From a virus: DNA of 64,000 nucleotides. How positions within the stretch are numbered: the stretch's first letter is position 1; each line of letters starts with the position of its first letter. The stretch lies in IMG/VR virus record IMGVR_UViG_3300046170_000494, positions 96,001 to 160,000 of that record; one strand, 5' to 3'. The notes under the pieces are model-generated. The model was not told the DNA's origin and searched no databases. It was given only the letters and a program-made list of their open reading frames with translations. Made by a program: the position numbers and the translations under genes. Of this stretch, positions 1-22,248 are shown in pieces.

Positions 1-133
1 CAATCACAGGTATTTGCGAGCTTATGTATTTAACCCAATCAAAAAGCTTTCTGTGTTTTCCAAATCTATCATTATTGAAAAAACTTAACCATTGATTTTT
101 GAGATCTATTAATTCTTGTTGTTTTTTATTCAT
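1..133 (-). CDS. partial hypothetical protein running off the left edge (MNKKQQELIDLKNQWLSFF...)
   Basis: ATG at 133-131 overlaps the TGA of the 130..1635 ORF (ATGA coupling); my translation has no stop to base 1. Not in the ORF track (44 codons visible). Confidence 0.6.
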   Translation of the reverse strand, partial: MNKKQQELIDLKNQWLSFFNNDRFGKHRKLFDWVKYISSQIPVI

Positions 134-1635
134 TTGAATTTCATTTTATTTTTATCTATAGGGTTTCTTACCCCCCAATGTTCAACTCCACTTTCATCGT
201 ACATAGCTTCTTTACCTAAACCATTAGCTATATTGAATGTATTTTTATCGTATTTAAATAGAAAAGTCTCTTCGGGCGGAGTTTCTATGAAAATTTGAAT
301 ATACTTTGATTCATTTATCTTTTCAATTATTTTATCTAAAACTTCTTCGCTTGGATGTCTTTCTAGACTGTGTCCATAAATCATTTTAGTTAAAGCGTGA
401 AAATATGTAATTGGCGCTAATGTTAATATATCTTGCCAACCTGACCTTCTTCTCCTTAACATTAAATCTAATGCTGATTTATGTAGTGGATTATTTGGGG
501 CGCTAATCATAATATCTTGAGAAAAGTCTATGATTTTTCCATGATTGGAGTGCAGGGGTAAAACGCATTTTGCGTTTTTTTGTATAATTGAGTCTAGATC
601 TTTATTTGTATGTCTATCTATATCTGTATATAGGCCACCTTCGTTAACTATTTTTAATAGACGCCATGTGTCAACTTTTGATACTATCGGTGCGTCTTTA
701 ATTAAATTGTAGTCTACGCTTGATAAGTTCTCCTTTAAATAAGTTTCTACTTCGTTATCATCTGAGATGATAAGCTCCCAGTTAGGGTTTAACTTAATTA
801 AATTCTGTATTCCATTTATAGCTAATTGATTTGAACTTTCTAAGATAGATTTATCTTTCCATGAAATATGAATTTTTTTAGGTATAGATGGTAGAGGTTC
901 AAGTAAATCATCTAGATTTTTTGATTGAGAACTTATTCTCATAATAGAAGAATTATTAAAAAAACTAGATTTCTTTTTGGGTAAATTAATCGGATCAGAA
1001 TATACTTTTTTATGATACTTGCTATTATCTAGTTCAAAATTAGTTGCAGCTTCCCTACCTCCGAACTTTAAATCCTGAAGAAAAATAGGTTTCTTAAGAG
1101 CGTATACATTATAATTTGTCTGCATTTCCGCAGCAAAAACATCCCAAATTTTATCTTGATAAAAACCATCGATCATAGCTTTCTGATAAGCCGCTGCGCC
1201 GAGAGCGCTGCAAATCATTATTGAGTGACCGCTTAACATATTAAATATTTGATAAGTATTTTCATCTACCTCTTTTGCAGAGATATCATCAACAGCTTTA
1301 CCGTTATTCATTGCAAGCTGGGACAAACCTAGATAAAACAAATCAGCATCATACGGAATATCTATCTCTTCTGGCATTTCCCTGAAAAAAGAAATATCGT
1401 CCTCTAATATCACAAAGGGTTGAAATGGTTTGTCATTATCTTGATCCCTTAACCCTGCCTCAATCATTCTTGCATGACCTATACTTCCAGATTTTTCTTT
1501 TGATATACCTATTTCAAAAGGTAGTACTTTTTTGCATTGATAATATTTTAATATAGATTCTACATGTTTAGAGTTTTCACTATCTTCTGTTTTTGTTAGA
1601 TAATAAAATTTAATATTATTTGTTTTGAGTATCAT
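130..1635 (-). CDS. bifunctional glycosyltransferase: GT25-like N-domain fused to GT32-like (DXD) C-domain
   Basis: N-half FVILEDDI...ADLFYLGLS; C-half IPKKIHISW...DTWRLLKIVNEGGLYTDID; C-half is an obvious paralog of 18827..19585. Confidence 0.8.
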   Translation of the reverse strand: MILKTNNIKFYYLTKTEDSENSKHVESILKYYQCKKVLPFEIGISKEKSGSIGHARMIEAGLRDQDNDKPFQPFVILEDDISFFREMPEEIDIPYDADLFYLGLSQLAMNNGKAVDDISAKEVDENTYQIFNMLSGHSIMICSALGAAAYQKAMIDGFYQDKIWDVFAAEMQTNYNVYALKKPIFLQDLKFGGREAATNFELDNSKYHKKVYSDPINLPKKKSSFFNNSSIMRISSQSKNLDDLLEPLPSIPKKIHISWKDKSILESSNQLAINGIQNLIKLNPNWELIISDDNEVETYLKENLSSVDYNLIKDAPIVSKVDTWRLLKIVNEGGLYTDIDRHTNKDLDSIIQKNAKCVLPLHSNHGKIIDFSQDIMISAPNNPLHKSALDLMLRRRRSGWQDILTLAPITYFHALTKMIYGHSLERHPSEEVLDKIIEKINESKYIQIFIETPPEETFLFKYDKNTFNIANGLGKEAMYDESGVEHWGVRNPIDKNKMKFK

Positions 1636-2716
1636 CTATTATTTTCTTATATACATTAATGTTGTTTGTATTATATGGACTATATTTATTTAGGAAATTT
1701 CTATTATCTTCCCTGCTTTGATCTAGTGTTTTTGAATGATTAAGTATAGCGTTCTTTAATTGGTTTGCGCCAAAATCTACATCGCAGTCTGGATAATAAT
1801 AACCTACATCTTGTAAAGTTGGCGAATTATGTATTAAGGGCAGGTTTAAAAATAAAGCCTCGAGATAACTGTAGTTTAGTTCATTTTTTATTTGATGGCT
1901 AACTATAGTGCTTCCAAATTTACTTAAAGCGTTGAGAGAACCCCATCTTTTATTAAAGTAGCAAAAGTCTTTCTTTTTAACTACACTTAGTCTATTCATT
2001 AGTTTTTCAAAAAATGGATTAAACTTAATTCGTTGACAACAGAATAAATTTACAGATTTCATTATTTCCGAATCCTTGTGATAGAGGTTTTCGCATATAT
2101 TAATTGGCACTATACAATTTTTAATATATGAAATATTAGGTTCAAAGATACATATTTTATGGCTTCTGGCTTGTGTATAATTAGGATCCAAGCCTTTGTA
2201 TTTTAATTCTTGTATCTTATCTTCTACGAAAAATGAATCCCATATAAATGGTATGACTATAACTTTTTCAAAATTATAATATGTCTTAATATAGTTTTTT
2301 GAAAATTCATGTTGCGGGGATATCCAGATTTGATCTAGATATTTTGGCTTTTCTAATGGAAGCTTTGCGCTTTTATCTAATAAGGAGTGATGTATGTCGT
2401 CCATTAATTTATTGCCAAAATGAATCAAAATTGTATTGAAATTTTTATTTCTAGATTTAAATTTATCGTACATCTCTGGCAGTAAATCAAATCCAGCTAC
2501 TATTATTAGATCTAAGCTTTCGTTGTCATCAGATAATAAGTCATCTAATAGCATGCCTTTGTGATCTTTTTTTAATTTATGTAATGGCTCTTTATATGTA
2601 ATGTAGAAACATTCGTGGCCGCATCTTTGTATCATTTCGTACAAGAAGACTATATTTTGTTGCATCCCGTTCGCCCAGAAGGCGACCGACATATCGAGGG
2701 TTATTCCTATTTTCAT
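1616..2716 (-). CDS. DUF2827-like putative GT-B glycosyltransferase, copy 1
   Basis: MKIGIT...NGMQQNIVFL, ICIFEPNISYIKNCIVP, NELNYSYLEAL...PLIHNS...GYYYPD match the DUF2827 pattern as I recall it. Confidence 0.75.
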   Translation of the reverse strand: MKIGITLDMSVAFWANGMQQNIVFLYEMIQRCGHECFYITYKEPLHKLKKDHKGMLLDDLLSDDNESLDLIIVAGFDLLPEMYDKFKSRNKNFNTILIHFGNKLMDDIHHSLLDKSAKLPLEKPKYLDQIWISPQHEFSKNYIKTYYNFEKVIVIPFIWDSFFVEDKIQELKYKGLDPNYTQARSHKICIFEPNISYIKNCIVPINICENLYHKDSEIMKSVNLFCCQRIKFNPFFEKLMNRLSVVKKKDFCYFNKRWGSLNALSKFGSTIVSHQIKNELNYSYLEALFLNLPLIHNSPTLQDVGYYYPDCDVDFGANQLKNAILNHSKTLDQSREDNRNFLNKYSPYNTNNINVYKKIIDDTQNK

Positions 2717-3792
2717 GACAATAATTTTTTATATTTTTCTATAACAAGTGGATTTTTGGGTGAATATTTGTAAATTGTTTTTCTAGAGTTTTCTTTGTAA
2801 GATTCCAGGTTTTGATCGTGGTAGTTTAGGGCTAGTTCTAAAGCTCTACTTCCAAGTTTAGTGTCGTAATCAGGGTAATAATATCCTGCTGATTTAATAA
2901 TATTGGAATTATGAACTAATGGAAAATTGAAATGTAACGCTTCGAGATAAGTATAATTCAGGGCATTTAGTAGTTGGTTGGAGATAAATATATTGGATAA
3001 GCCTGTGAATATTTTGGTCACTTTTATTCTCGGCTTGAATTCAATTTTATTTTCTTTTGTAATGTTGAGTTTCCACATTAAAGATTTGAAGTATTTTTTA
3101 TCTAAAAACTTTGATGCGCAATAAACAGATATTTTGTTGAAATCTTCTTTACTTATATTTGAAAAATATTCCTCCGCTATCATAATTGAAGGGAGGCAGT
3201 GCTTAGTTATGTTTAAATTAGGTTCGAGTATACCAATATTTTTCTCTTCTCCTGCCTTATAGTAGCATGTTTTGTTTATTTTATTCCAGATTTTTTCATG
3301 AATATCTACATATTTAGGGCTCCAGATATAAGGTAATTCGAATATTTTTTCCGTATGATAATACGTTTTATAGTAATTGTAGGAAAATTTATAATGGGGA
3401 GATATCCAAACTTCGTCAGCGGTTTCATTATCTATTGCTAAGTGATCCTGCCAACTACATCTTTCTATATCGGCTAGCATTCCGTTGCCATAAACTATAT
3501 GAATATTTTTAAAACTTTTATTTTTTTGCCTTATTAATGAAATCGTGGAAGATTCTATTAGCCAGGCAGTGTTTAGTACAAAAGCTAAATCATCACAATA
3601 ATCTAAGATTTCATTTTTTTCAATAATTATAATATCACATGGAGGATCAACACATTTATCTATGTCATGATTTACTGCAATAATAGGATTGAATCCTAAA
3701 TTAATTAATAATTCAGATAAAAATACAATATTTTGCTGCAAACCATTACTAAAAAGCCCGTTTTCAAAATTAGCTGTCAATAAAACTTTCAT
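2713..3792 (-). CDS. DUF2827-like putative GT-B glycosyltransferase, copy 2
   Basis: NGLQQNIVFL, VWISPHY, IGILEPNLNITKHCLP, NALNYTYLEAL...PLVHNS...GYYYPD; tandem paralog of 1616..2716 with ATGA overlap. Confidence 0.75.
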   Translation of the reverse strand: MKVLLTANFENGLFSNGLQQNIVFLSELLINLGFNPIIAVNHDIDKCVDPPCDIIIIEKNEILDYCDDLAFVLNTAWLIESSTISLIRQKNKSFKNIHIVYGNGMLADIERCSWQDHLAIDNETADEVWISPHYKFSYNYYKTYYHTEKIFELPYIWSPKYVDIHEKIWNKINKTCYYKAGEEKNIGILEPNLNITKHCLPSIMIAEEYFSNISKEDFNKISVYCASKFLDKKYFKSLMWKLNITKENKIEFKPRIKVTKIFTGLSNIFISNQLLNALNYTYLEALHFNFPLVHNSNIIKSAGYYYPDYDTKLGSRALELALNYHDQNLESYKENSRKTIYKYSPKNPLVIEKYKKLLS

Positions 3793-3807
3793 TGACTTAA
3801 TTTACAC
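3793..3807 (-). promoter_or_regulatory. putative late promoter GTGTAA, 9 nt before ATG (leaderless)
   Basis: minus strand GTGTAA-ATTAAGTCA-ATG; same motif precedes about ten structural transcription units. Confidence 0.6.
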
Positions 3808-3809
3808 AA

Positions 3810-6770
3810 TTAATTTTCCGAAATTACAAAACTTGCTGGATTAGATGTTGAGGTATTTGCTGATCTGTTTAGTTTGTCTAAATTAAAAACAAAGCTCCCA
3901 TCTGAATCTGTGAGTCCGCTTGAGTTACATATTGTAAATTTATTATTTACATCGTAAGAATTGTCCAGCTGTATGCCATCAGAGTAAGATTGATAGGTAT
4001 ATATTGTTCCTCCGTTTGGAGCCGTACCTCCTTCAGAGACATTTTCAAAAGTTACGCTGCTAGTATTTGAGACAGTGGTTCCTATGTCAGCTAAACCTGC
4101 CCCTAAGCTATTTGGGGAGGCATTAATTGTTCTAGAGGAAAATCCTGCAAGCGTATAATTTGGGTTAGTTGAAATTGAATTTGTTGTAATTCCTGCTAAA
4201 TTAGTTGCGGTAATACTCCATGAGAAAGTTCCTTTTGTATTAGAATCTGAAACTGTAATTGTATAAGAATTACTCGTCTCTCCTGTTCCCGAACTATTGA
4301 TGACAAGAACAGGCTGATTGCTTTGAGATGAATCAAGACTTAGAGTTGGGCTATTCAGCATTAGCTGCGAACTTTGAAGATAAAATTGATCTGATATTCC
4401 TGATGGTGAGCTTGATAATTTTGAAGCTAAATTATTTATTGATAAAGTCAGTGGTGTGTTTGCTATATTTACTATATCTTGACGTTCGATAGTTATACCG
4501 TTTGATGTTTTCGTTCCTGATAAGATGAAATTATTAACAGATATATTATATGAACCGCCTAATCTAAAAACCTCTTTTTTAACTAAAGCGTATCCGTTTG
4601 AACTAAGCTGGGGTGTAGTATTAATGCTTACGGTTTGCGTACTACCCGAAGTAGGTTGTAACCCGCTATGATTTAAGTTTACGCCAGATGAAGCCACTGC
4701 AGATAAGTTTGGCTGACTGTTAATAAAATTTATAATTGGCCCATTATAAGGCCATCCATTTTGGCGCTTTGGATAATTAACTATAAGTGTAGTACCAGAG
4801 GTAGAAATAGATGCAGTACCTCCGTAATTTATGATGTTCAACCTAAGATGTGTATAAGCTCCTGCATAAGGCCCAGTCATAGTAACCCTTACATATCCTC
4901 CAGGTTGATTTAATAACTGCCTAACTACCCAATTTCCATAATATTCTAATTCATTATCAAATTGACTATTGGTAGAGAAGTTTAATTCACCAGATCCACC
5001 TAAATTGTTATCATCTATATAAAGAGTGTCTACGTTATTTTTTTCGAAATTGATAGTGGCAGATTCAGAATTTTTTAATGCACTTTGATTAATCGGGTAA
5101 TCTATTCCTAACAAGTTTAAATACGGTACTGATCCGTTATTTAATGTGGCAGTATCTGATGTTGTGAACTTATCGCTCAGTGTTCCAAAATTATTTCTTG
5201 CAATAAATGCTGCAGGTTGACTTCCGTCTCTGGTCGAAGATCCTATTGAACCGTATACATTAATAGGAACTGTAAATTTATAGCTTCCGTCTGAAAGAGT
5301 TGTCTTCGAGTAGCTTGAGGAGTAAGAAGTTTGTGATCCGTTAGATACACCTTCACTTCTAACTGAAAGAGAAATATTGTTTATCGATGTACCTTTACCA
5401 TCTATAAAGATTTCGGATTGCACAGTGTCTCCAGCTTTAATTTCAGAAGTACCAATTGAATGCGGAGAAGTAGCTGAGGAAGCTATTGACTGTAAGGAGG
5501 CTCCAGTTATTTGCGGCCCGTTTGCAATTTTAACTTTTATACTATCTGTGTCTGTTGCTCCGTTTGAAGTTTTAGAAGCAGAAATTGTTATATTGTTTGA
5601 ATTATTGTATATTCCTTGTACGTAATCTACTGTTTTTACCGATTGAAAAACTGCAGGATCGGTGATTGAAATATCATTACTTGTTGTATATGAAACTAAA
5701 TCAGATGAACTATTCCAATTAGATATACTATTATTAAAAGTTGTGGATTCTCCTTCTCTTAAACCATCTGTTCTACCATTATATGAAGTTGGATTACTTG
5801 CAGATATTGATGGATAAATTTGATCTACATCTCTAGTTCCACTACCGTGAACAAAAACTTCAGATGATATTGCATCTCCAGTTGAGCCAAAGGCGTTTAC
5901 CGCTTGTACTGCTACTCCGTGTGAACCATTGGATACATTTGAAACTGTTATTGGTATTGTGGCCGTAAATATGCCGTTTGATTCTACTAAACTGTAATTA
6001 GCGAAATTTATTTGTTGAGCTAAACCTGAGCCTAAAACTTTAATAGAACTAACATCATTTGTGTCAAAGTCTACGTATACATTTAAGGAATCTCCTTGTT
6101 TTAAATGAGTTGACCCTATGTTTTCTCCTGGTTTAGGCGTTGCGGCAGTTATTGGGTCAATTCTTATATCTACAGCTTCTGGACCTCCTCCTGCTTCGGA
6201 TAGGGGTATTATGATTGTTCTACCATTAGCTTCTCCGCTTAATTCAGTCTTGCCTTCTATATTTAAGTTATCTATAAATCCAATAAATCTTCTTGTATTA
6301 TCTCCTAGCTGCTGTATGTTTCCAAAAGGTATTTGTTGTCCTTCAATGTAAGCGGAACCCATATAGTCATCATTGGGTCCGTCCCATTGCATTTCAACCC
6401 TTAAATCTTCTGCAGTAGTAACTTCTACAGAAGATAAATACAAATTTGGGTCTGGTGTGTTATAATAAGTTTTATTTGTAACGCCTATATTATCAAGTAC
6501 ATCTGAAAAGAAAACAAATTCCGCTGCTCCAGATTGTACTTGAGAGACAGATGTTCCTAAGCTAGCCACATCTACTCCATCTAGGGTTAAACCGCTGATA
6601 AAATTACCACTTAAAAATTCTACTGAATCTTGCGTGGTTAAATTTTGATCCATTGAGAACTCTAAATCCCCAATAAAAAGATTGTCGAAATATCCTGTAG
6701 CCCAAGGCTTACCTAATCGACCTACTCCACCTTCTCCGCTATTTCTTGGAACTAAATTTCTTGTAGCCAT
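3810..6770 (-). CDS. Ser/Thr/Asn-rich virion structural protein with repeated Ig-like beta domains
   Basis: N-terminus MATRNLVPRNSGEGGVGRLGKPW typical of phage fibre/decoration proteins; internal duplication (KQGDSLNV/KAGDTVQS; SASKTSNG...KIAN/SGTKTSNG...NIAN). Confidence 0.6.
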   Translation of the reverse strand: MATRNLVPRNSGEGGVGRLGKPWATGYFDNLFIGDLEFSMDQNLTTQDSVEFLSGNFISGLTLDGVDVASLGTSVSQVQSGAAEFVFFSDVLDNIGVTNKTYYNTPDPNLYLSSVEVTTAEDLRVEMQWDGPNDDYMGSAYIEGQQIPFGNIQQLGDNTRRFIGFIDNLNIEGKTELSGEANGRTIIIPLSEAGGGPEAVDIRIDPITAATPKPGENIGSTHLKQGDSLNVYVDFDTNDVSSIKVLGSGLAQQINFANYSLVESNGIFTATIPITVSNVSNGSHGVAVQAVNAFGSTGDAISSEVFVHGSGTRDVDQIYPSISASNPTSYNGRTDGLREGESTTFNNSISNWNSSSDLVSYTTSNDISITDPAVFQSVKTVDYVQGIYNNSNNITISASKTSNGATDTDSIKVKIANGPQITGASLQSIASSATSPHSIGTSEIKAGDTVQSEIFIDGKGTSINNISLSVRSEGVSNGSQTSYSSSYSKTTLSDGSYKFTVPINVYGSIGSSTRDGSQPAAFIARNNFGTLSDKFTTSDTATLNNGSVPYLNLLGIDYPINQSALKNSESATINFEKNNVDTLYIDDNNLGGSGELNFSTNSQFDNELEYYGNWVVRQLLNQPGGYVRVTMTGPYAGAYTHLRLNIINYGGTASISTSGTTLIVNYPKRQNGWPYNGPIINFINSQPNLSAVASSGVNLNHSGLQPTSGSTQTVSINTTPQLSSNGYALVKKEVFRLGGSYNISVNNFILSGTKTSNGITIERQDIVNIANTPLTLSINNLASKLSSSPSGISDQFYLQSSQLMLNSPTLSLDSSQSNQPVLVINSSGTGETSNSYTITVSDSNTKGTFSWSITATNLAGITTNSISTNPNYTLAGFSSRTINASPNSLGAGLADIGTTVSNTSSVTFENVSEGGTAPNGGTIYTYQSYSDGIQLDNSYDVNNKFTICNSSGLTDSDGSFVFNLDKLNRSANTSTSNPASFVISEN

Positions 6771-6784
6771 TACTTATATTACAC
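6771..6784 (-). promoter_or_regulatory. putative late promoter GTGTAA, 8 nt before ATG
   Basis: minus strand GTGTAA-TATAAGTA-ATG. Confidence 0.6.
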
Positions 6785-6792
6785 AAATTATA

Positions 6793-9700
6793 CTAAAATG
6801 ATATATCATCTGTAAATGCTTCCGGTCCGGTATTATATCTCCAGATATTAGCTCTTAATTCTATATCAGTTTCATTCTTTAATATCCACATCGTATCAGA
6901 TATTTCTTTTTCGTTACTTGGTATAATATCTCCATTTTCATCTATTTCAAAAGCTTCTTTTAAGTCGTATCTATCTACTGATCCAGTTATGGAGCCGGAT
7001 ATATCACTAGCTTTTATTTCGTCGGTTAAAATTAAAGATTTTTCGTCGTCGGAAACTTTTAAAAATTTACCACTACCACTAATGAATGAAGTGGGGGTGT
7101 CAAGTAAATCTAAAAAGTTTGAAGCTCCGGCAGTATTAACTTTCCTTTCTAAATTTAAGTATGTATCATTTGGATTAGATGATATAGAGAATTGTCCTGT
7201 ATCTGTAGAAAAATGTTCTATTTCTGCCACGATGTAATCGTCGTGAGTTAAAAAAACGTTTTTGATATTAACTTGAGGTTTTAGTATTGATGAATATGCT
7301 GAATTATACTCTTCGACTAATTCACTATCTTGTTTAAATCTTATATCCGAACCTAGATAAGTTGTTTGATTTGTAGATATATTTTTCTTATATATATTAG
7401 CGGTAGATTTAAGTATTGATCCTAAGTTTTGGTCTTCTTTATAAGTCCATTCAAAATCTATATCATAGAATGCTGAATCGCTAGCTCTTAGAGTATTATA
7501 CTGTCCTTCGTATAGCCAATTTTTTGAGCCCGAAGATAATTGTCCATTAAAATTTAATATTGTGCCTGATTGATTATTAATGAATTGACCGTCTAATATT
7601 GATGCTTTTGAAAATATACTTCCCGAAGCTTCTACTACTTCGGAGTATTCTATTGAAGTGCCTTCTTTGGATACCCTAAGATATTTTCCTGCGCCATCTT
7701 CTATTCTTTCTGGAGTGTCAAGTAACTGCTCAAAAGTAAAAACTCCGCTTGCTGGAGAATTCTTTTTTTCTATATTTATGTATGTGTCAAATTCCTCTGT
7801 AGATATTTTGTATAATTTTCCTGTATTAGCTGAATAATGACTGGCTACTGCGTATATTTCTTCTTCAGGGGTAAGGAATACATTTTTAATGTTAATTACT
7901 GGATTTAATGCTGAAGAATATGCTCCGCTATACTCTTCGATAAATGCCGCATCTGTTTTGAATTTAACATCGGTTCCTAATATTTCTTGAAAATTTGTTA
8001 ATTTGTTAACTTTGTATACGAGGCTATTAGAGCTTAAAATATCTCCTACATATTCCCCAGAGTTATATTTCCAACTAAAATCAATATCATAATAGCCTTG
8101 TTCTTCTACGTTAAATGTGTTTCTGGAGTTATCTTCACTTAAAGATCTCCAGTCATAAGATCCTTCAGATAATTGCCCTGTAAAATTAATATTAAGTTGA
8201 TTCGCATTACTTAAATATTGCTCTCCAGACGCAAAAGCTTTGCAAAATATAGCAGCTTCGTTTGACGCTGTAACGTGTCCAGATATAACTATACCAGAAC
8301 TAAAGTCTATGCTTGATAATGAACCTTCTAATTCATCTAACCTTTCTTCTACATCAAAGCCGTTTAAATTTAAATTATCAAATATTCCTGCACTGGATAC
8401 AAAGTTTACTCCAGATAGTTCAGAGAATAATCCTGTAGATAGCTCTAGATTCTGAATCAATCCTGATTCAGTAATAAAGTTTACTCCAGATAGTTCAGAG
8501 AATAATCCTGTAGATAGCTCTAGATTCTGAATCAATCCTGATTCAGTAATAAAGTTTACTCCAGATAGTTCAGAGAATAATCCTGTAGATAGCTCTAGAT
8601 TCTGAATCAATCCTGATTCAGTAATAAAGTTTACTCCAGATAGTTCAGAGAATAATCCTGTAGATAGCTCTAGATTCTGAATCAATCCTGATTCAGTAAT
8701 AAAGTTTACCCCAGATAGTTCAGAGAATAATCCTGTAGATAGCTCTAGATTCTGAATCAATCCTGATTCAGTAATAAAGTTTACTCCAGATAGTTCAGAG
8801 AATAATCCTGTAGATAGCTCTAGATTCTGAATCAATCCTGATTCAGTAATAAAGTTTACTCCAGATAGTTCAGAGAATAATCCTGTAGATAGCTCTAGAT
8901 TCTGAATCAATCCTGATTCAGTAATAAAGTTTACTCCAGATAGTTCAGAGAATAATCCTGTAGATAGCTCTAGATTCTGAATCAATCCTGATTCAGTAAT
9001 AAAGTTTACCCCAGATAGTTCAGAGAATAATCCTGTAGATAGCTCTAGATTCTGAATCAATCCTGATTCAGTAATAAAGTTTACTCCAGATAGTTCAGAG
9101 AATAATCCTGTAGATAGCTCTAGATTCTGAATCAATCCTGATTCAGTAATAAAGTTTACTCCAGATAGTTCAGAGAATAATCCTGTAGATAGCTCTAGAT
9201 TCTGAATCAATCCTGATTCAGTAATAAAGTTTACTCCAGATAGTTCAGAGAATAATCCTGTAGATAGCTCTAGATTCTGAATCAATCCTGATTCAGTAAT
9301 AAAGTTTACCCCAGATAGTTCAGAGAATAATCCTGTAGATAGCTCTAGATTCTGAATCAATCCTGATTCAGTAATAAAGTTTACTCCAGATAGTTCAGAG
9401 AATAATCCTGTAGATAGCTCTAGATTCTGAATCAATCCTGATTCAGTAATAAAGTTTACTCCAGATAGTTCAGAGAATAATCCTGTAGATAGCTCTAGAT
9501 TCTGAATCAATCCTGATTCAGTAATAAAGTTTACTCCAGATAGTTCAGAGAATAATCCTGTAGATAGCTCTAGATTCTGAATTAATCCTGATTCAGTAAT
9601 GAAGTTTAATCCAGATAGTTCAGAGAATAATCCTGTAGATAGCTCTAGATTCTGAATCAATCCTGATTCGCCAATTAAGCTTACTCCAGATAGTTCAGAG

Positions 9701-9858
9701 AATAATCCTAGATTTACATTTAATTTTTTTACTGTAATTTCATCTACAGCAATACGATGTCCATCTATTTCTACTAGCGGATCATTAGTGTTTGGTCCTA
9801 TTACATATTGATCTAAACCAATTTTCCTTACCGGCTTTTTTATTTCAAAAAAATCCAT
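6793..9858 (-). CDS. tail fibre-like protein with a 25-aa tandem-repeat shaft and two C1q/TNF-like beta domains
   Basis: (LELSTGLFSELSGVNFITESGLIQN)n shaft; two FxxLLDTP...GxGKxLxV motifs common in phage fibres; two related domains (NFTGQLSEGS..W...YYDIDFSW / NFNGQLSSGS..W...FYDIDFEW). Confidence 0.7.
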   Translation of the reverse strand: MDFFEIKKPVRKIGLDQYVIGPNTNDPLVEIDGHRIAVDEITVKKLNVNLGLFSELSGVSLIGESGLIQNLELSTGLFSELSGLNFITESGLIQNLELSTGLFSELSGVNFITESGLIQNLELSTGLFSELSGVNFITESGLIQNLELSTGLFSELSGVNFITESGLIQNLELSTGLFSELSGVNFITESGLIQNLELSTGLFSELSGVNFITESGLIQNLELSTGLFSELSGVNFITESGLIQNLELSTGLFSELSGVNFITESGLIQNLELSTGLFSELSGVNFITESGLIQNLELSTGLFSELSGVNFITESGLIQNLELSTGLFSELSGVNFITESGLIQNLELSTGLFSELSGVNFITESGLIQNLELSTGLFSELSGVNFITESGLIQNLELSTGLFSELSGVNFITESGLIQNLELSTGLFSELSGVNFITESGLIQNLELSTGLFSELSGVNFITESGLIQNLELSTGLFSELSGVNFVSSAGIFDNLNLNGFDVEERLDELEGSLSSIDFSSGIVISGHVTASNEAAIFCKAFASGEQYLSNANQLNINFTGQLSEGSYDWRSLSEDNSRNTFNVEEQGYYDIDFSWKYNSGEYVGDILSSNSLVYKVNKLTNFQEILGTDVKFKTDAAFIEEYSGAYSSALNPVINIKNVFLTPEEEIYAVASHYSANTGKLYKISTEEFDTYINIEKKNSPASGVFTFEQLLDTPERIEDGAGKYLRVSKEGTSIEYSEVVEASGSIFSKASILDGQFINNQSGTILNFNGQLSSGSKNWLYEGQYNTLRASDSAFYDIDFEWTYKEDQNLGSILKSTANIYKKNISTNQTTYLGSDIRFKQDSELVEEYNSAYSSILKPQVNIKNVFLTHDDYIVAEIEHFSTDTGQFSISSNPNDTYLNLERKVNTAGASNFLDLLDTPTSFISGSGKFLKVSDDEKSLILTDEIKASDISGSITGSVDRYDLKEAFEIDENGDIIPSNEKEISDTMWILKNETDIELRANIWRYNTGPEAFTDDISF
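8401..9709. repeat. intragenic tandem array, 75-bp unit, 17 full copies plus partial, with 300-bp higher-order period
   Basis: units start at 8411+75k (8411...9686); a T-to-C variant occurs only at 8710, 9010 and 9310. Confidence 0.97.
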
Positions 9859-9860
9859 TA

Positions 9861-11693
9861 TTACTTAAAATTATCGTAAAACCCTGTTTCTTTATAAACT
9901 ATTGAATATTTTACTGTATAACCTGATATAGTATGAGGTCTTTTCACAAAAACTCTTCCAGCTTCATCACTGTCAATTTTGACCGCCATGTCTGTGTCTA
10001 GATATATTAGATCATCCGTTTTCGGTGAGACTGGTTCTGTGTTATTTTTTCTTCTTTCTGCAGTATGGAACTGTATAGGATAAGGGGATTCATTATATAT
10101 AACTACATGGTCTACTAAGCCTCTTTCATATAAATCATTAAAGTCGTCTAATTCATAAGAATTAATTAAACTTGCAGATTTATTTTCTTGACGAAGACTA
10201 AATAAAGTGTCACTATGGAAAGTTGCATAGGATTCGCTGCATCTATCTGGATCTGTATATTCTGAATGAATAAAATAATTAGGATGACCTGTTTCGAGCA
10301 TACTCTTGTTCAATCTTCCATTTGAAAAATAATTTCCAAAAACGTCATCCATTAAATTTTTATCTTGACCGAAGCACTCTCCTGAAACTATACCATATCT
10401 TAAATCATCTGGAATGTTTTCCATTAGAATAAAATCTTCTTCTATTTTTTGGGAGACAGTTTTAGTTCTTAGTTTCCATGGTTGGTATAATTCTCTTTTC
10501 TGAGCTTGATCTAATTTAGATAATTTACCAGATATTCCTGAAAGCAATCTATGAGTTTCTTCATCTTCTATATCTATGTTTGAAAATTCTCCAGATATTC
10601 CTGAAAGCAATCTATGGGTTTCTTCATCTTCTATATCTATGTTTGAAAATTCTCCAGATATTCCTGAAAGTATTCTGTTTGTTTCTTTATTATCCAGGTT
10701 TACATCTAGATCAGAAAGTTCCCCTGAGATACCAGAGAGTAATCTATTTGTTTCTTCACTATCTAGGCTTACCTCTAGATCAGAAAGTTCTCCTGAGATC
10801 CCAGAGAGTAATCTATTTGTTTCTTCACTATCTAGGCTTACCTCTAGATCAGAAAGTTCTCCTGAGATACCAGAAAGCAATCTATTTGTTTCTTCACTAT
10901 CTAAGCTTACCTCTAGATCAGAAAGTTCTCCTGAGATACCAGAAAGTAATCTATTTGTTTCTTCACTATCTAGGCTTACCTCTAGATCAGAAAGTTCTCC
11001 TGAGATACCAGAAAGCAATCTATTTGTTTCTTCAGTATCGATATTTATATCTAGCGAAGATAATTCTCCTGAAATACCAGAGAGTAACCTGTGAGCTTCT
11101 AAATCTTCGGTATCTAAACTAGATAATTCCCCTGAAATACCAGAGAGTAACCTGTGAGTTTCTAAATCTTCGGTATCTAAACTAGATAATTCCCCTGAAA
11201 TACCAGAGAGTAACCTGTGAGTTTCTAAATCTTCGGTATCTAAACTAGATAATTCCCCTGAAATGCCAGAGAGTAACCTGTGGGTATCTATGTCGCTATC
11301 TATAGATACATCAACTTGGATTCCAGATAAATTTTTATTAATTAATTCTAGTAAATTATTTACATCTTTACTATTATCTATTTGAGCTTCATGTATGTTA
11401 GATAGTCCTGAAGTTATTCCTGATAATATATAATTTGTATCTAAAGAAATTAAATTATGAATACCTTCAGTTTTAGATGATATACTATTTAATATATCAT
11501 TTGTTGGGCCTAAATCTATGTTTAAGTCGCCAGATATATCAATATTAACTTCATCGATATTGACTGGACCTGCTGGCTCCCATCTTCCACTCTCGGAATT
11601 CCAATTGTATGAAAATGTAGGGGTAGGTGAGAGGGAGTCAAGGTTCGTTATATCTGTGTATAACGGATTGTTTTTATAATCTTCGTTAGGCAT
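9861..11693 (-). CDS. acidic repeat-containing virion-associated protein (helical 21/23-aa repeats)
   Basis: 12 units of xRLLSGISGELS...; unique N- and C-terminal domains; in the same minus-strand cluster as the fibre genes. Confidence 0.6.
   Translation of the reverse strand: MPNEDYKNNPLYTDITNLDSLSPTPTFSYNWNSESGRWEPAGPVNIDEVNIDISGDLNIDLGPTNDILNSISSKTEGIHNLISLDTNYILSGITSGLSNIHEAQIDNSKDVNNLLELINKNLSGIQVDVSIDSDIDTHRLLSGISGELSSLDTEDLETHRLLSGISGELSSLDTEDLETHRLLSGISGELSSLDTEDLEAHRLLSGISGELSSLDINIDTEETNRLLSGISGELSDLEVSLDSEETNRLLSGISGELSDLEVSLDSEETNRLLSGISGELSDLEVSLDSEETNRLLSGISGELSDLEVSLDSEETNRLLSGISGELSDLDVNLDNKETNRILSGISGEFSNIDIEDEETHRLLSGISGEFSNIDIEDEETHRLLSGISGKLSKLDQAQKRELYQPWKLRTKTVSQKIEEDFILMENIPDDLRYGIVSGECFGQDKNLMDDVFGNYFSNGRLNKSMLETGHPNYFIHSEYTDPDRCSESYATFHSDTLFSLRQENKSASLINSYELDDFNDLYERGLVDHVVIYNESPYPIQFHTAERRKNNTEPVSPKTDDLIYLDTDMAVKIDSDEAGRVFVKRPHTISGYTVKYSIVYKETGFYDNFK
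10510..11290. repeat. intragenic mosaic tandem array of 63-bp and 69-bp units (about 12 copies)
   Basis: 63-bp offset between lines 11101/11161 (21 aa); 69-bp offset around 10801/10870 (23 aa); three sub-families of unit. Confidence 0.93.
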
Positions 11694-11708
11694 ACGAAGA
11701 TATTACAC
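11694..11708 (-). promoter_or_regulatory. putative late promoter GTGTAA, 9 nt before ATG
   Basis: minus strand GTGTAA-TATCTTCGT-ATG. Confidence 0.6.
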
Positions 11709-11714
11709 TTTTTT

Positions 11715-12059
11715 TTAATCCCTATCTAAGTGATGCTTTATGCCGTTTCTTTTTTTACTATATTCCTTGAAATATTTTTGCCTAACAGGGTCGTATCCGA
11801 GTTTATCTTTTCTTTTTTGACTAAGCTCTCTACTTTGATCTATTAAGTCTCCGTAGGAACCTTTTTGGTTTGAAGTTTTTTCTATAAAAGCTTTATTATC
11901 AAAAGGATCTGTACTGGAATCGATTTTTGCTTGAGGGATATTCCACACTCTTTTCCATTTTACGCTTTTTTCATCTACAAAAACATGATCTTCATTCATT
12001 CCTTGTATTAAGTCTATCGTCTCCCCTGTTTCTGGGTGTTCGTATGTATATAGTGGCAT
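11715..12059 (-). CDS. FmdB-like small protein, cysteine-less variant
   Basis: MPLYTYEHPETGETIDLIQGMNE follows the MPxYxYxCxxCG FmdB pattern with CxxC replaced. Confidence 0.6.
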   Translation of the reverse strand: MPLYTYEHPETGETIDLIQGMNEDHVFVDEKSVKWKRVWNIPQAKIDSSTDPFDNKAFIEKTSNQKGSYGDLIDQSRELSQKRKDKLGYDPVRQKYFKEYSKKRNGIKHHLDRD

Positions 12060-13114
12060 TATTCTAATATCCTATCTAAAGTATTTTTATATGTAAATTT
12101 ATCTTTTAGTTTTTCTCCCTCTGTATTTAATGATTTACATTTTGATTCAGCTAGATTCATTGCTTCTATAAACTCTTCTTCATTGAATGTATATATGTGC
12201 CCTTGATTAAAATCAGAACCTTTTTTGAAAAATATATTATCATATACTTCTTCTTTGCCGTCAGGCTCTATTAAAATAGAGTTGTCTTTGTTTGCCCAAT
12301 CTTTATGGCTGGTTGAGTTTAACACTATACTCCATTTGCCTAAGCATGTTGCATTGAAGGAAGGTAGATTCCAGCCTTCAGCACCACTCATTCCCCCCAA
12401 GTCAATATCTATTGAATTAAGAAAATCATTTACTTGCGAGTTTTTAGGTAAAAACGGTAGGAAGTTAATGTTTCCGTAGCTTTTGCCTTCAAGAATATTC
12501 CTGATGGAGGCCTCCATTTGATCTTTCTTGAAAAAGGGGTTTGTGATGCAACATGTTAACTGGTAATTATAGTTGTTGCCATATTTCTTTATCCATGCTC
12601 TAATTATTTTTTGAGTATGTTTCCTTTTCTCTAATTTGCCCATCAAACCAAAATGGATTTTATTATTTAAATATTCTTTTCCTGTTTTATGAAATGAAGT
12701 ATCGAATCCTAAGGGGGCGAAATGACTTTCATTAAAATGCGATTTAGCAAAAGAACTGCTAAATACTAATTTATCTTGAAGTTCTGCTATTCTGCTCTCG
12801 GCTTCTGTCGGTGAATCTAATTCGTAAAAAGTATAAAGTATTTGCCTTTTTGTTATTCTATTCTCTGCCCCATTTAGGTGCCACATTTGTAATGTAGTTG
12901 AATTTTTATCTAGTTTACTATATCTTGAGTTAACTCCATCCTCAATCCACTTCTTGAAGCTTTGGTCTTGAACCTGAAAAGAGCTTACATCTATATTTCC
13001 TGTGGGGAAGATGGACACATCATAATTTTCATTATACAATTCTTTTAGTAGATTAAATGATACATTACCGAAAGATAATGAATTTAGTGGGCCTTTGAAT
13101 ATAATTTTTTTCAT
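12059..13114 (-). CDS. GT4-family (GT-B) glycosyltransferase
   Basis: APLGFDTSF, FGLMGKLEKRKHTQKII, SGAEGWNLPSFNATCLGK. Confidence 0.8.
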   Translation of the reverse strand: MKKIIFKGPLNSLSFGNVSFNLLKELYNENYDVSIFPTGNIDVSSFQVQDQSFKKWIEDGVNSRYSKLDKNSTTLQMWHLNGAENRITKRQILYTFYELDSPTEAESRIAELQDKLVFSSSFAKSHFNESHFAPLGFDTSFHKTGKEYLNNKIHFGLMGKLEKRKHTQKIIRAWIKKYGNNYNYQLTCCITNPFFKKDQMEASIRNILEGKSYGNINFLPFLPKNSQVNDFLNSIDIDLGGMSGAEGWNLPSFNATCLGKWSIVLNSTSHKDWANKDNSILIEPDGKEEVYDNIFFKKGSDFNQGHIYTFNEEEFIEAMNLAESKCKSLNTEGEKLKDKFTYKNTLDRILE

Positions 13115-13497
13115 TAAAAAGGGATATCTGAGAATTCGTCTTCTTCTTCTTGTGTGTCGTTTTCTTTTTCTGAAGGATTATCGTTAGAACTCTCATTATT
13201 TCCACTTAAAAAAGTAACTATATCTGCAATGCAGAAAATTTTGTTTCTAGTTTGCCCTTCTGAGTTTTTCCATGAATTTAAGTGAAGCCTTCCGTCTACC
13301 ATTACTTTCCTGCCTTTACTAAGAAATTTTGCGCAATTATCCGCAGTTTTATTCCATGCCTCTACGTCCATATATAGAACATTATCTGATGGTCTGTTAT
13401 TTATGGCTATAGTGAATACGCAAACCTTCTTTCCGGTTTTAGTTTCTTTTACCTCTGGATCTTTTGTTAAGTTACCTAATCCTATAAATCTATTCAA
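13114..13497 (-). CDS. ssb: single-stranded DNA-binding protein (OB fold)
   Basis: MNRFIGLGNLTKDPE...DVEAWNKTADNCAKFLSKGRKVMVDGRL and acidic tail ending DIPF. Confidence 0.95.
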   Translation of the reverse strand: MNRFIGLGNLTKDPEVKETKTGKKVCVFTIAINNRPSDNVLYMDVEAWNKTADNCAKFLSKGRKVMVDGRLHLNSWKNSEGQTRNKIFCIADIVTFLSGNNESSNDNPSEKENDTQEEEDEFSDIPF

Positions 13498-14101
13498 AAT
13501 TAAATTCTCCTTTCAGTTCGTTTTGTATGTCTTTTATTGCTGAGTTATGTATATTAATGCATCCTTGGATACTCAGATTTAATGAATCTCCTATATTTTT
13601 CCAAGGCATTACTTTGTTTTTATTTCCTTCTATGTATCTCATGTTAAATATTTTTTCGACTCTTTTATCTGGGTGGGAACCTATGAGGTTAAGAACTTTA
13701 TTGAAAATATCTTTTTTAATTGAATTGGCGATATCGTTAGATTCCTTAGATTCTTGATCTGACATGTTCTCTATATACTCTGATTGAAATACTGGGCGCC
13801 TCTTGTTTCTGTTGTAAGTATTTAAGCAATTCCATTTAGTTTCGTTTCCTAGATACGTACTAAATTTCGCACCTTTGCTTTCATCATACTTTAGTGCTGC
13901 GGAGAAAATTTTATACTCCTTATCGTTGATTAAGTCTTCTTTGTCTATAAATGGATTATCCTTCGTTGAGTAAGCATTAACCATATCAATATATATTCCG
14001 CTATGTCTTTCTACTAATTCATTTAAACTAGCCTCAATATCAGTCCTATTTTTGATATTATTAATAAGCTCTAGGTCTGTGTGATTATTAAAAAAGTTCA
14101 T
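13490..14101 (-). CDS. sigma-70-family RNA polymerase sigma factor (regions 2 and 4)
   Basis: DLIN...IFSAALKYDESKGAKFSTYLGNETKW (region 2); FNMRY...WKNIGDSLNLSIQGCINIHNSAI (region 4 HTH). Confidence 0.85.
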   Translation of the reverse strand: MNFFNNHTDLELINNIKNRTDIEASLNELVERHSGIYIDMVNAYSTKDNPFIDKEDLINDKEYKIFSAALKYDESKGAKFSTYLGNETKWNCLNTYNRNKRRPVFQSEYIENMSDQESKESNDIANSIKKDIFNKVLNLIGSHPDKRVEKIFNMRYIEGNKNKVMPWKNIGDSLNLSIQGCINIHNSAIKDIQNELKGEFNFE

Positions 14102-15078: not shown

Positions 15079-15114
15079 TTGACAAAAGTCGTTAATTAGT
15101 TTAAGATCTACCGA
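15079..15114 (+). promoter_or_regulatory. sigma70-type promoter TTGACA-17bp-TAAGAT, leaderless
   Basis: -35 at 15079-15084, -10 at 15102-15107, ATG at 15115 after 7 nt; no Shine-Dalgarno. Confidence 0.8.
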
Positions 15115-18799: not shown

Positions 18800-18826
18800 T
18801 AAAATATCAGAAAATAATACCAAAGC

Positions 18827-22239: not shown

Positions 22240-22248
22240 AATAAATAC

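What the first reader, a model, noticed from the sequence alone, without database searches (positions are those of the whole stretch)
130..11693. Candidate late-expressed virion glycosylation module: DUF2827 pair plus GT25-GT32 fusion directly behind Ser/Thr-rich fibre genes
Seen: three Ser/Thr/Gly-rich structural genes, two built from repeats with several Ser/Thr per unit (LSTGLFSELSG; LLSGISGELSS), are followed on the same strand by two DUF2827-like paralogs and a GT25-GT32 fusion. The first DUF2827 gene carries the same GTGTAA element (3802-3807) as the tail genes, unlike the sigma70-driven glycan operon at 15-22 kb. Established: some mycobacteriophages (e.g. Che8, Myrna) glycosylate virion proteins with phage-encoded glycosyltransferases. 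My recollection, to be verified, is that DUF2827 genes cluster near adhesin-glycosylation loci in Burkholderia. Inference: DUF2827 enzymes initiate protein O-glycosylation on the repeat shafts and GT25/GT32 extend the chain. This would assign a function to DUF2827, and repeat copy number would set glycan density.
Basis: partly seen in the sequence, partly recalled or inferred. Interest (0 to 1): 0.8.

Follow-up and report, generated by a model that had tools for sequence, protein, structure and literature searches.

The report
Phage fibre sugar-coating enzymes (DUF2827 pair)
An uncultured marine phage places two enzymes of the untested DUF2827 family, plus further sugar-transferases, under a structural-gene type promoter between its most serine-rich fibre genes, as Burkholderia does beside its adhesins, so the enzymes probably sugar-coat the fibres, though nothing has been tested at the bench.

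Summary
On the minus strand lie three Ser/Thr-rich fibre-like genes, two of them built from near-perfect repeat arrays. They are followed by two true DUF2827 genes (Pfam 196 and 242 bits) and a 501-aa protein with a GT32 domain.

DUF2827b models confidently (pLDDT 91) as a GT-B, GT4-like glycosyltransferase (Z 23.5 to BshA). Relatives always keep the a-then-b pair, adjacent or split by one GT34-like gene. It is always followed by variable glycan enzymes, and nearly always preceded by a conserved GTGTA[AT] element that also heads the tape-measure, gpJ and fibre genes.

In a complete relative, the two most Ser/Thr-rich large proteins are exactly the two genes flanking this operon. Burkholderia plasmids show the same layout: Ser/Thr-rich adhesin, then DUF2827, then DUF2827. 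A 2026 preprint reports that association.

Fibre O-glycosylation is therefore the best reading (about 0.55) but is untested. Three points were not supported. The GT25 label of the N-terminal domain is weak. The repeat arrays are lineage-specific, not the conserved partner. Initiator versus extender roles cannot be told.

This scan has already noted DUF2827-plus-fibre pairs in many other viral genomes.

The parts
12059..13114 (-). 351-aa glycosyltransferase-like gene (context). It is the last gene of the early/middle block and lies two genes upstream of the fibre trio.
   Evidence: phrog_2170 'glycosyltransferase', E 5.7e-17. No Pfam hit. Conserved in this position in relatives.
11703..11708 (-). 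GTGTAA promoter-like element, 9 nt before the start of the 610-aa gene.
   Evidence: Conserved at the same place in relatives.
9861..11693 (-). 610-aa fibre-like protein with 21/23-aa Ser-rich repeats (..HRLLSGISGELSSLD..) and a non-repetitive C-terminal domain.
   Evidence: Translation. 63/69-bp arrays at 10528-11290. S+T 0.19. Homologues of 342-541 aa in relatives.
6793..9858 (-). 1021-aa fibre-like protein with about 18 copies of a 25-aa repeat (LSTGLFSELSGVNFITESGLIQNLE), then two related C-terminal domains.
   Evidence: Translation. S+T 0.20. Copy number varies even among near-identical relatives: 801 aa in L001. The array is absent from 134-418-aa homologues.
8401..9709 (.). 75-bp x 17.5 near-perfect tandem array that encodes the 25-aa repeat.
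   Evidence: Tandem Repeats Finder, 98% matches, score 2541.
6779..6784 (-). GTGTAA promoter-like element, 8 nt before the start of the 986-aa gene.
   Evidence: Conserved in relatives.
3810..6770 (-). 986-aa Ser/Thr/Gly/Asn-rich protein, not repetitive. It is the conserved upstream neighbour of the DUF2827 pair in the closer relatives.
   Evidence: S+T 0.24, the highest in the window. The C-terminus matches phrog_15433 (tail category), E 2e-34, and jumbo Pseudomonas phage tail-annotated proteins at 28-29% identity. Its homologue is the second most S+T-rich of 94 large ORFs in the complete relative G002.
3802..3807 (-). GTGTAA promoter-like element in the 17-nt gap before DUF2827a.
   Evidence: A GTGTA[AT] lies in the 45 nt upstream of the DUF2827a start (usually within about 15 nt) in nearly all of the 26 related loci, whatever gene lies upstream.
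2713..3792 (-). DUF2827a, 359 aa, predicted cytoplasmic GT-B glycosyltransferase.
   Evidence: PF10933 E 1.1e-57, 196 bits. It keeps the family-invariant residues shared with b. It forms its own clade (support 100) in the family tree. The one hydrophobic stretch (residues 22-40) is read as Rossmann core, not a membrane segment.
1616..2716 (-). DUF2827b, 366 aa, paralogue (29% identical to a). Its start overlaps the stop of a by 4 nt (ATGA).
   Evidence: PF10933 E 1e-71, 242 bits. AF2 model pLDDT 91.3. GT-B/GT4-like: Foldseek E 3e-10, VIA Z 23.5 to BshA and 19.6 to SdgB.
130..1635 (-). 501-aa two-domain protein. The N-terminal domain (about 1-240) is unassigned and possibly a distant GT25-like GT-A. 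The C-terminal domain is GT32 with a DXD motif.
   Evidence: PF04488 E 2e-9 at residues 273-354. D338-I-D340 is invariant. N-terminus: phrog_24091 only, no Pfam hit, hhalign to GT25 probability 38-41%. The AF2 model failed, pLDDT 36.

Best explanation
The block 130-3807 is the head of a separately promoted glycosyltransferase operon. It belongs to an uncultured low-GC marine siphovirus with a lambda-type tail tip; a complete relative has a genome of about 184 kb.

The operon starts with two paralogous, soluble DUF2827 enzymes. These have a GT-B fold of the GT4-like class, whose solved members are retaining enzymes. It continues with GT-A type enzymes: the 501-aa GT32 fusion and, just left of the window, a 532-aa gene and a GT34. 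It ends with a Ser-rich coiled-coil 'MAK' fibre gene.

The most likely function is this. Late in infection, in the host cytoplasm, the two DUF2827 enzymes O-glycosylate Ser/Thr in the exposed positions of fibrous virion proteins, either one after the other or on different acceptors. The candidate acceptors are the 986-aa protein, the two repeat fibres upstream and the MAK fibre downstream. The GT-A enzymes then extend or decorate the glycan. This is how SdgB and SdgA treat the Ser-Asp repeat adhesins of Staphylococcus.

Shown here: family membership, fold, gene order, the conserved promoter-like element and the parallel with Burkholderia adhesin loci. Inferred: that the acceptor is protein, which proteins, which sugar, the order of action and the late timing.
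For: 1. Both genes are full-length DUF2827. DUF2827b folds at pLDDT 91.3 into two Rossmann domains. These match GT4-type retaining glycosyltransferases over the whole length, including the protein Ser-O-GlcNAc transferases SdgB (Z 19.6) and GtfA.

2. Both paralogues keep the same invariant polar residues: N16, G17, Q20, E192, N194, K199, N281, E286, H296, N297 and the G305/Y306/Y308 motif. Both therefore look catalytic.

3. Synteny. In 25 IMG/VR loci and one MAG contig the a-then-b pair is always present and always followed by glycan enzymes. Four near-complete relatives have exactly two copies each.

4. Searching from the other side, with the MAK fibre as query, gave 35 loci. In 24 of the 28 with enough flank, the pair lies within 10 kb upstream and a GT34 gene abuts the fibre gene.

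5. A much more distant phage (L044/L045) has the same plan: DUF2827, DUF2827, a sulfotransferase-GT34 fusion, then a Ser-rich 11-aa-repeat 'MAK' fibre.

6. In the complete relative G002, the two most S+T-rich of 94 ORFs of 200 aa or more are exactly the two genes flanking the operon.

7. A GTGTA[AT] element lies shortly upstream of DUF2827a in nearly all relatives, although the upstream gene differs. In the window the same element heads the tape-measure gene, the gpI-gpJ gene and two of the fibre genes. The SSB/sigma/kinase block and the 15-26 kb glycan cluster instead have TTGAC-type promoters.

8. Independent parallel in bacteria. On Burkholderia plasmids a YadA-like or ESPR adhesin is followed on the same strand by two or three DUF2827 genes. 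One of these adhesins has S+T 0.46 and 'SNVASLSSGLSTT' repeats; the DUF2827 genes overlap the adhesin gene or each other by 4 nt. A preprint reports 327 such cases.

9. The tandem copies arose separately in Burkholderia and in the phage lineage (tree), so a pair has been selected twice.

10. The phage MAK fibre repeats (..SDVSSLAGDIS..) align with the Burkholderia adhesin repeats (blastp E 4e-11). The motif [DSTN][LIV][ASG]SL[SAQ] occurs 3-15 times in MAK fibres and 85 times in that adhesin.

11. SdgA and SdgB give a worked precedent: two GT-B enzymes encoded beside repeat-adhesin genes and acting in sequence on Ser (PMC3794999).
Against: - No glycoprotein has been observed. Everything here is guilt by association plus fold.
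- GT4-like folds also act on lipids, small molecules, teichoic acid and DNA, so the fold does not name the acceptor.
- All the phage loci belong to one broad lineage, so conserved linkage may partly be inheritance.
- In some relatives the MAK fibre lies about 18 kb from the pair (L082 and L017 on one contig). In others the gene just upstream of the pair is a small, non-fibrous protein.
- Relatives add pyruvyl- and sulfotransferases and WbsX-, GT47- and GT77-like enzymes. These are more typical of polysaccharide synthesis than of short O-glycans.
- The repeat likeness to the adhesin is between low-complexity Ser-rich coiled coils and could be convergent.
- In G002, GTGTA[AT] also precedes some genes that do not look structural, so 'late' is not established.
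- That the three upstream genes are virion parts is itself only weakly shown.
Confidence: 0.55

Rival explanations
1. The operon remodels a host envelope glycan (LPS core, capsule or exopolysaccharide) rather than virion proteins. The purpose could be to block superinfection, or to stop progeny from sticking to cell debris. Adjacency to fibre genes would then only reflect a fibre-rich, mosaic genome region.
For: GT25, GT32, GT34, WbsX, pyruvyl-transferase and sulfotransferase genes that follow the pair in relatives are typical of LPS or polysaccharide pathways. The nearest solved folds include the LPS and lipid glycosyltransferases WaaG and PimA. The same phage carries a second large cluster with GT25, GT32 and WavE families and a HAD-nucleotidyltransferase. 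One bacterial DUF2827 lies between type I secretion genes and not beside a recognisable adhesin.
Against: No flippase, polymerase or lipid-carrier initiating transferase was seen in the operon. All its enzymes lack membrane segments. The operon carries the element shared with tail and fibre genes, not the host-type promoter of the other glycan cluster. The Burkholderia and preprint association is with adhesin genes, not LPS loci. The operon is flanked by the two most S+T-rich proteins of a complete relative.
Confidence: 0.2
2. The enzymes glycosylate another virion or phage target, such as the capsid or tail tube as in mycobacteriophages, or they build a free or virion-bound polysaccharide. 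The neighbouring fibres would not be the acceptors.
For: Known phage virion glycosylation targets the capsid and tail-tube C-termini (Freeman et al. 2023, cited as reference 45 in PMC12619734). The upstream neighbour of the pair differs between relatives. The long repeat arrays are not conserved.
Against: The fibre-side search finds the pair upstream of the MAK fibre in most loci with enough flank. S+T enrichment is highest in the flanking genes. Bacterial DUF2827 sits next to fibrous adhesins.
Confidence: 0.12
3. The DUF2827 enzymes glycosylate modified bases in phage DNA, as T4 alpha- and beta-glucosyltransferases do, to evade restriction.
For: T4 alpha-glucosyltransferase and a cyanophage 'DNA alpha-GT' are among the structural matches (Z 19.7; BFVD rank 15). 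Phage glycosyltransferases that hypermodify DNA are diverse (Pyle et al. 2024, cited as reference 46 in PMC12619734).
Against: No thymidylate-synthase-like (dCMP/dUMP hydroxymethylase) gene was found in four relatives that are 79-100% complete. The structural matches are generic GT-B matches and rank below many others. The family's bacterial members sit beside adhesin genes. The operon carries a structural-gene type promoter element.
Confidence: 0.04

Closest known systems
DUF2827 gene arrays beside trimeric autotransporter adhesins of Burkholderia, Veillonellales and Pasteurellales (bioRxiv 10.64898/2026.01.22.700529)
   Same: Same Pfam family (PF10933). Two or three successive copies lie directly downstream of a long, Ser/Thr-rich, repeat-built fibrous surface protein on the same strand, with overlapping or near-abutting reading frames. 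The enzymes are soluble. The proposed but untested role is glycosylation.
   Different: Here the neighbours are phage fibre genes, not secreted autotransporters. The phage a and b copies are only 25-29% identical to the Burkholderia ones. They come from a separate duplication. The phage operon adds GT32, GT34 and other enzymes and has its own phage promoter-like element.
SdgB/SdgA of Staphylococcus aureus (Ser-Asp repeat adhesin O-GlcNAc transferases; PMC3794999, PMC8561734)
   Same: Two paralogous GT-B (GT4-type) cytoplasmic enzymes encoded next to repeat-adhesin genes and acting in sequence on Ser of the repeats. SdgB is a structural match of the DUF2827b model (Z 19.6 over 330 residues).
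   Different: There is no detectable sequence relationship: 11% identity in the structural alignment, and no PDB hit by profile. The acceptor repeats differ. SdgA and SdgB are divergently transcribed. This is an analogy of mechanism, not membership.
GtfA/GtfB of streptococcal serine-rich repeat proteins
   Same: A pair of GT-B paralogues dedicated to Ser-rich repeat fibres, followed by GT-A extenders. GtfA appears among the fold matches.
   Different: From my own knowledge, GtfB is a non-catalytic partner. Here both paralogues keep the same conserved polar residues.
Mycobacteriophage virion glycosylation (Che8, Myrna; Freeman et al. 2023, Cell Host Microbe, cited in PMC12619734)
   Same: Phage-encoded glycosyltransferases that modify the phage's own structural proteins.
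   Different: From my own knowledge, those systems use other glycosyltransferase families and put glycans on capsid and tail-tube C-termini of actinobacteriophages. No DUF2827 relative was found by tblastn in 50,697 cultured phage records.
Giant-virus glycosylation gene blocks
   Same: A Pyramimonas orientalis virus protein is by far the best viral structural match (TM 0.87). DUF2827 occurs fused to GT11, GT31/Fringe, GT77, GT32 and GT2 domains in long multi-enzyme proteins.
   Different: Those are eukaryotic-virus contexts. Their acceptors are equally untested.

Membership tests
Pfam DUF2827 (PF10933) | Whole-protein HMM score above the curated cut-off (25 bits), covering the full model. | tested here: met
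   359-aa protein: 196 bits, model positions 11-362 of 362. 366-aa protein: 242 bits, positions 2-361 of 362.
GT-B fold glycosyltransferases (GT4-like class) | Two Rossmann-like domains with an interdomain cleft, matching solved GT-B enzymes over the whole length. | tested here: met
   AF2 model pLDDT 91.3, pTM 0.88. Foldseek E 3e-10 to BshA, MshA and PimA. VIA Z 23.5, rmsd 4.1 over 327 residues to BshA.
GT-B fold glycosyltransferases (GT4-like class) | Sequence membership of Pfam Glycos_transf_1 / CAZy GT4. | tested here: not met
   No Pfam family other than DUF2827 at E 0.01 or better. The profile search of PDB sequences found nothing meaningful. It works like a GT4 enzyme by fold but is not a sequence member.
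GT-B fold glycosyltransferases (GT4-like class) | Sugar-nucleotide donor binding and transfer activity. | not testable with these tools
   Only conserved polar residues can be shown: E192, N194, K199, E286, H296 and N297 are invariant in both paralogues.
GT32 (Pfam Gly_transf_sug, PF04488) | HMM above the cut-off and a DXD motif. | tested here: met
   38.2 bits against a cut-off of 23, at residues 273-354 of the 501-aa protein. D338-I-D340 is invariant in 7 homologues.
GT25 (Pfam Glyco_transf_25, PF01755), claimed for residues 1-240 of the 501-aa protein | HMM match above the cut-off. | tested here: not met
   No hit even at E 10. None of 42 homologues of this domain carries a precomputed PF01755 hit.
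GT25 (Pfam Glyco_transf_25, PF01755), claimed for residues 1-240 of the 501-aa protein | Remote homology by profile-profile comparison or by fold. | tested here: inconclusive
   hhalign against true GT25 domains of related phages: probability 38-41%, E 3e-4, aligning the SH, ILEDD and LGG motifs. The AF2 model is unusable, pLDDT 36.
Dedicated adhesin/fibre O-glycosylation systems (SdgA/B, GtfA/B type) | Glycosyltransferase genes encoded beside the Ser-rich repeat substrate gene. | tested here: met
   for the phages. for Burkholderia.
Dedicated adhesin/fibre O-glycosylation systems (SdgA/B, GtfA/B type) | Glycan demonstrated on Ser/Thr of the neighbouring protein. | not testable with these tools
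   Needs mass spectrometry or glycan staining.
Phage DNA glucosylation (T4 AGT/BGT type) | A hydroxymethyl-pyrimidine pathway (thymidylate-synthase-like hydroxymethylase) in the same genome. | tested here: not met
   PF00303 is absent from four relatives that are 79-100% complete, while the control genomes gave hits. The window's own genome is not held whole.

The most novel reading that the evidence does not exclude
DUF2827 is a widespread, so far unrecognised family of protein Ser/Thr O-glycosyltransferases specialised for Ser-rich coiled-coil fibre stalks ('..SSL..', 'SLSTGLS' type repeats). Bacterial trimeric adhesins, tailed phages and giant viruses would all use it to put a glycan coat on their attachment fibres. 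In this phage lineage it would be expressed from a dedicated phage promoter (GTGTA[AT]), possibly read by the phage's own sigma factor. The variable downstream enzymes would generate strain-specific fibre glycans.
Probability: 0.4. Interest if true: 0.8.

Novelty: new variant of a known kind. Interest (0 to 1): 0.6.

Why it matters
If true, a family with at least 1,381 representative clusters and no tested function would get a role. Glycosylated attachment fibres would become a shared feature of marine phages, giant viruses and bacterial adhesins.

Fibre glycans could affect host recognition, protease resistance and particle stickiness in sea water. The highly variable enzyme set behind the pair suggests diversifying selection on the glycan.

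The system is directly testable. Two small soluble enzymes and short repeat peptides can be co-expressed in a laboratory host.

Tried and rejected
- AF2 of the 501-aa protein with a shallow 7-row alignment: pLDDT 35.9, unusable. No fold search was made with it.
- Protein Atlas look-up of the 986-aa protein: no usable hit and no model.
- megablast of 1-12000 and tblastn of DUF2827b against 50,697 cultured phage records: no match.
- The nearest held virus record, G001, ends inside the 1021-aa gene homologue and so lacks the pair.
- The genome-contig scan with the DUF2827 alignment found only two loci, because the single pattern used was narrow. One is a phage-like contig binned in a Coraliomargarita MAG; the other is a 3.9-kb contig of a Prochlorococcus single-cell assembly.
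- Profile searches of PDB sequences with DUF2827 and with the N-terminal domain of the 501-aa protein: nothing.
- The paper on 'moraphages' (PMC12619734) describes a different lineage with contractile tails.
- DNA-glucosylation reading: considered and given low weight.
- A membrane-segment reading of the hydrophobic stretch 22-40 of DUF2827a: rejected. It is the first helix and strand of the Rossmann core, which both paralogues keep.
- Whether MAK-fibre phages exist without DUF2827 could not be settled. The three contigs that lack it near the fibre, or anywhere, are only 43-56% complete.

Full report
**What is there**

The window is a low-GC (about 32%) tailed-phage genome segment. It encodes lambda-type tail-tip proteins: gpM-like and gpL-like proteins, a gpI-gpJ fusion of 1728 aa, and a 2299-aa tape-measure protein. 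No cultured phage resembles it at DNA level. Its own assembly is not held.

On the minus strand, 14941 to 130 reads as follows:
- a small ORF, a dNMP kinase, a sigma-like protein, SSB and a 351-aa glycosyltransferase-like protein;
- a 114-aa ORF;
- three Ser/Thr-rich fibre-like genes of 610, 1021 and 986 aa;
- two DUF2827 genes, a (359 aa) and b (366 aa);
- a 501-aa protein with a GT32 domain.

There are about 18 copies of a 25-aa unit and a series of 21/23-aa units. They are encoded by a 75-bp x 17.5 array and by 63/69-bp arrays. S+T is 0.19-0.24 in the three proteins, against 0.11 in 22 non-structural proteins of the window.

**The enzymes**

Both DUF2827 assignments are unambiguous (196 and 242 bits against a cut-off of 25). 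The two are 29% identical. The stop of a overlaps the start of b by 4 nt.

With a 25-row alignment, DUF2827b gives a confident model (pLDDT 91.3). It has two Rossmann domains and matches GT4-type retaining glycosyltransferases over its whole length:
- BshA (Z 23.5), TarM, MshA and PimA;
- the Ser-O-GlcNAc transferase SdgB (Z 19.6);
- T4 alpha-glucosyltransferase (Z 19.7).

There is no sequence-level link to any solved structure. Both paralogues keep the same invariant polar residues, so neither looks like a dead partner. None of the operon's enzymes has a membrane segment.

The C-terminal half of the 501-aa protein is a GT32 domain with an invariant DXD motif. Its N-terminal half is not GT25 by Pfam. 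No homologue of that domain carries a GT25 hit. Profile-profile comparison with true GT25 domains of related phages gives only 38-41% probability, although it aligns the expected motifs. The fold attempt failed. I therefore call it an unassigned, possibly GT25-like domain.

**Relatives**

DUF2827b finds 25 IMG/VR contigs (47-94% identity), mostly from marine samples, plus a phage-like contig binned in a MAG.

In every one, a is followed by b. In five loci a GT34-like gene sits between them. Four near-complete relatives have exactly two copies each.

What follows the pair is always a set of glycan enzymes, but a different set each time:
- the 501-aa fusion plus GT34;
- true GT25-GT32 fusions of up to 1216 aa;
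- GT2, GT47/RXYLT1-like, GT77 and WbsX enzymes;
- pyruvyl-transferases and sulfotransferases.

What precedes the pair differs too:
- the 986-aa protein in the closer relatives;
- a 660-aa plus a 159-aa gene in a second group;
- gpJ plus a 750-aa S+T-rich protein plus a 125-aa gene in a third group.

The long repeat arrays are not conserved. The homologue of the 1021-aa gene is only 134-418 aa in relatives that keep the pair. Its copy number differs even between near-identical genomes: 801 aa in L001.

**The better-conserved partner**

The operon usually ends with a gene starting MAKIFRTE... It is 208-602 aa long and has S+T of 0.25-0.34. It has Ser-rich repeats (..SDVSSLAGDIS..) and a small C-terminal globular domain, and a terminator follows it. 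In this genome that gene lies just left of the window; L001 is the closest relative seen, with 90-99% identical proteins in this block.

I then searched from that fibre instead and found 35 loci. In 24 of the 28 with enough flank, the DUF2827 pair lies within 10 kb upstream and a GT34 gene abuts the fibre. Two loci have the operon inverted beside the fibre. Three have it further away or off the fragment.

A much deeper-branching phage has the same plan with a different 11-aa Ser-rich repeat.

In the complete 184-kb relative G002, only 8.6% of the genome encodes large S+T-rich ORFs. The two richest of its 94 ORFs of 200 aa or more are exactly the two genes that flank the operon.

**Regulation**

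GTGTAA lies 9 nt before the DUF2827a start, at 3802-3807. The hexamer is under-represented overall: 30 GTGTAW against 44 expected. Even so, 8 copies sit within 35 nt upstream of start codons in the sense orientation. They precede the 610-aa and 986-aa genes, DUF2827a, gpI-gpJ, the tape-measure gene and three unassigned genes at 56-61 kb.

In relatives a GTGTA[AT] precedes DUF2827a in nearly every locus, despite unrelated flanking sequence and different upstream genes.

The SSB/sigma/kinase block and the plus-strand glycan cluster start instead from a divergent pair of TTGAC-17-TA...T promoters at 14.95-15.1 kb.

So the pair heads its own transcription unit of the class used by tail and fibre genes. 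That this class is 'late' is an inference. In G002 the element also precedes a few genes that do not look structural.

**The bacterial parallel**

I checked this on two plasmids:
- Burkholderia glumae: a YadA-like gene, then DUF2827, DUF2827, a hypothetical gene and a third DUF2827.
- Burkholderia thailandensis: a 2337-aa ESPR adhesin, then two DUF2827 genes. The first one overlaps the adhesin gene by 4 nt.

That adhesin is 46% Ser+Thr and is built from 'SNVASLSSGLSTT'-type heptad-like repeats. These align with the phage MAK-fibre repeats (E 4e-11) and share the ..[LIV][ASG]SL.. motif. This likeness is between low-complexity coiled coils and may be convergent.

A tree of 62 family members puts phage a, phage b and the Burkholderia copies in three separate, well-supported clades. 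The tandem pair therefore arose at least twice.

The family is large: 1,381 representative clusters. It occurs fused to many other glycosyltransferase domains, to a PLOD-type GT domain, and once to SET plus FkbM methyltransferase domains. Its best viral structural match is a giant algal virus protein.

**Reading**

The best-supported mechanism is dedicated O-glycosylation of fibrous virion proteins in the cytoplasm. It would work like SdgB/SdgA on staphylococcal Ser-Asp repeat adhesins, where two GT-B enzymes encoded beside the substrate genes act in sequence and the glycan protects against proteolysis. I put this at about 0.55.

The rivals are:
- host envelope glycan remodelling (0.2);
- another virion target or a polysaccharide (0.12);
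- DNA glycosylation (0.04). This is weakened by the absence of any thymidylate-synthase-like hydroxymethylase in four near-complete relatives.

Three points do not hold: the GT25 label, the central role given to the long repeat arrays, and the assignment of initiator and extender roles.

The DUF2827-adhesin idea is already published as a preprint hypothesis. Earlier notes of this scan report DUF2827 beside Ser/Thr-repeat fibres in many other viral genomes. Those are unchecked notes, which I did not use as evidence.

What this case adds:
- a lambda-like marine siphovirus lineage;
- a conserved promoter-like element that ties the operon to structural genes;
- the MAK fibre as the most constant partner;
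- the S+T ranking in a complete genome;
- evidence that the tandem pair evolved independently in phages and in Burkholderia.

Noticed in passing
window 3802-3807, 6779-6784, 11703-11708, 40212-40217, 53846-53851, 56010-56015, 60504-60509, 60525-60530: A GTGTA[AT] element 8-30 nt upstream of start codons marks a phage-specific promoter class. It precedes the tail, fibre and DUF2827 genes. In relatives it is often placed right after a terminator hairpin. The 203-aa sigma-like gene at 13490-14101 is an obvious candidate reader. The short distance to the ATG suggests leaderless or near-leaderless mRNAs.
   Followed up: partly
window 15079-26729 (+): A second, larger glycan gene cluster behind a TTGACA-17-TAAGAT promoter. 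It holds GT25, GT32, a HAD-nucleotidyltransferase fusion, a WavE-like gene and several genes without Pfam hits. With the minus-strand genes, this phage has well over ten glycan-related genes.
   Followed up: partly
window 8401-9709; L001:367-2772: The copy number of the 75-bp array differs between near-identical genomes. The protein is 1021 aa here and 801 aa in L001, with 99% identity in the non-repeat part. The array is therefore expanding or contracting quickly.
   Followed up: partly
L043 (P0130) and L028: In contigs with about 26% GC, one of them from a Prochlorococcus single-cell assembly, a single DUF2827 gene lies between a type I secretion membrane-fusion protein and a TolC-like outer-membrane protein. 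This hints at glycosylation of a type I secreted giant adhesin.
   Followed up: no
P0259, P0270, P0158, P0151: DUF2827 occurs fused to SET plus FkbM methyltransferase domains, to a PLOD-type GT domain, and in 1,486-2,194-aa proteins with GT11, GT31/Fringe, GT77, GT2 and GT32 domains. These look like giant-virus or algal assembly-line enzymes.
   Followed up: no
L014:12217-12807, L044:9540-11822, L021:11100-13004, L019:11802-14630: Relatives place sulfotransferases and polysaccharide pyruvyl-transferases behind the DUF2827 pair. The glycans made are therefore probably acidic and differ between strains.
   Followed up: no
L027 (contig of a Coraliomargarita MAG, 32.5% GC): A phage contig of this lineage is binned in a Verrucomicrobiota MAG. 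Together these are a weak host clue, but mis-binning is equally likely.
   Followed up: no
G002 (L046-L055), both ends: The 184,324-bp relative carries the same gene (MEFFQIK...) at both contig ends. This fits a complete, circularly permuted or terminally redundant genome.
   Followed up: no
window 35007-40193 (-): The 1728-aa protein joins a gpI-like tail assembly domain (phrog_32, residues 1-217) to a gpJ central-fibre body (phrog_31). It is a gpI-gpJ fusion.
   Followed up: no
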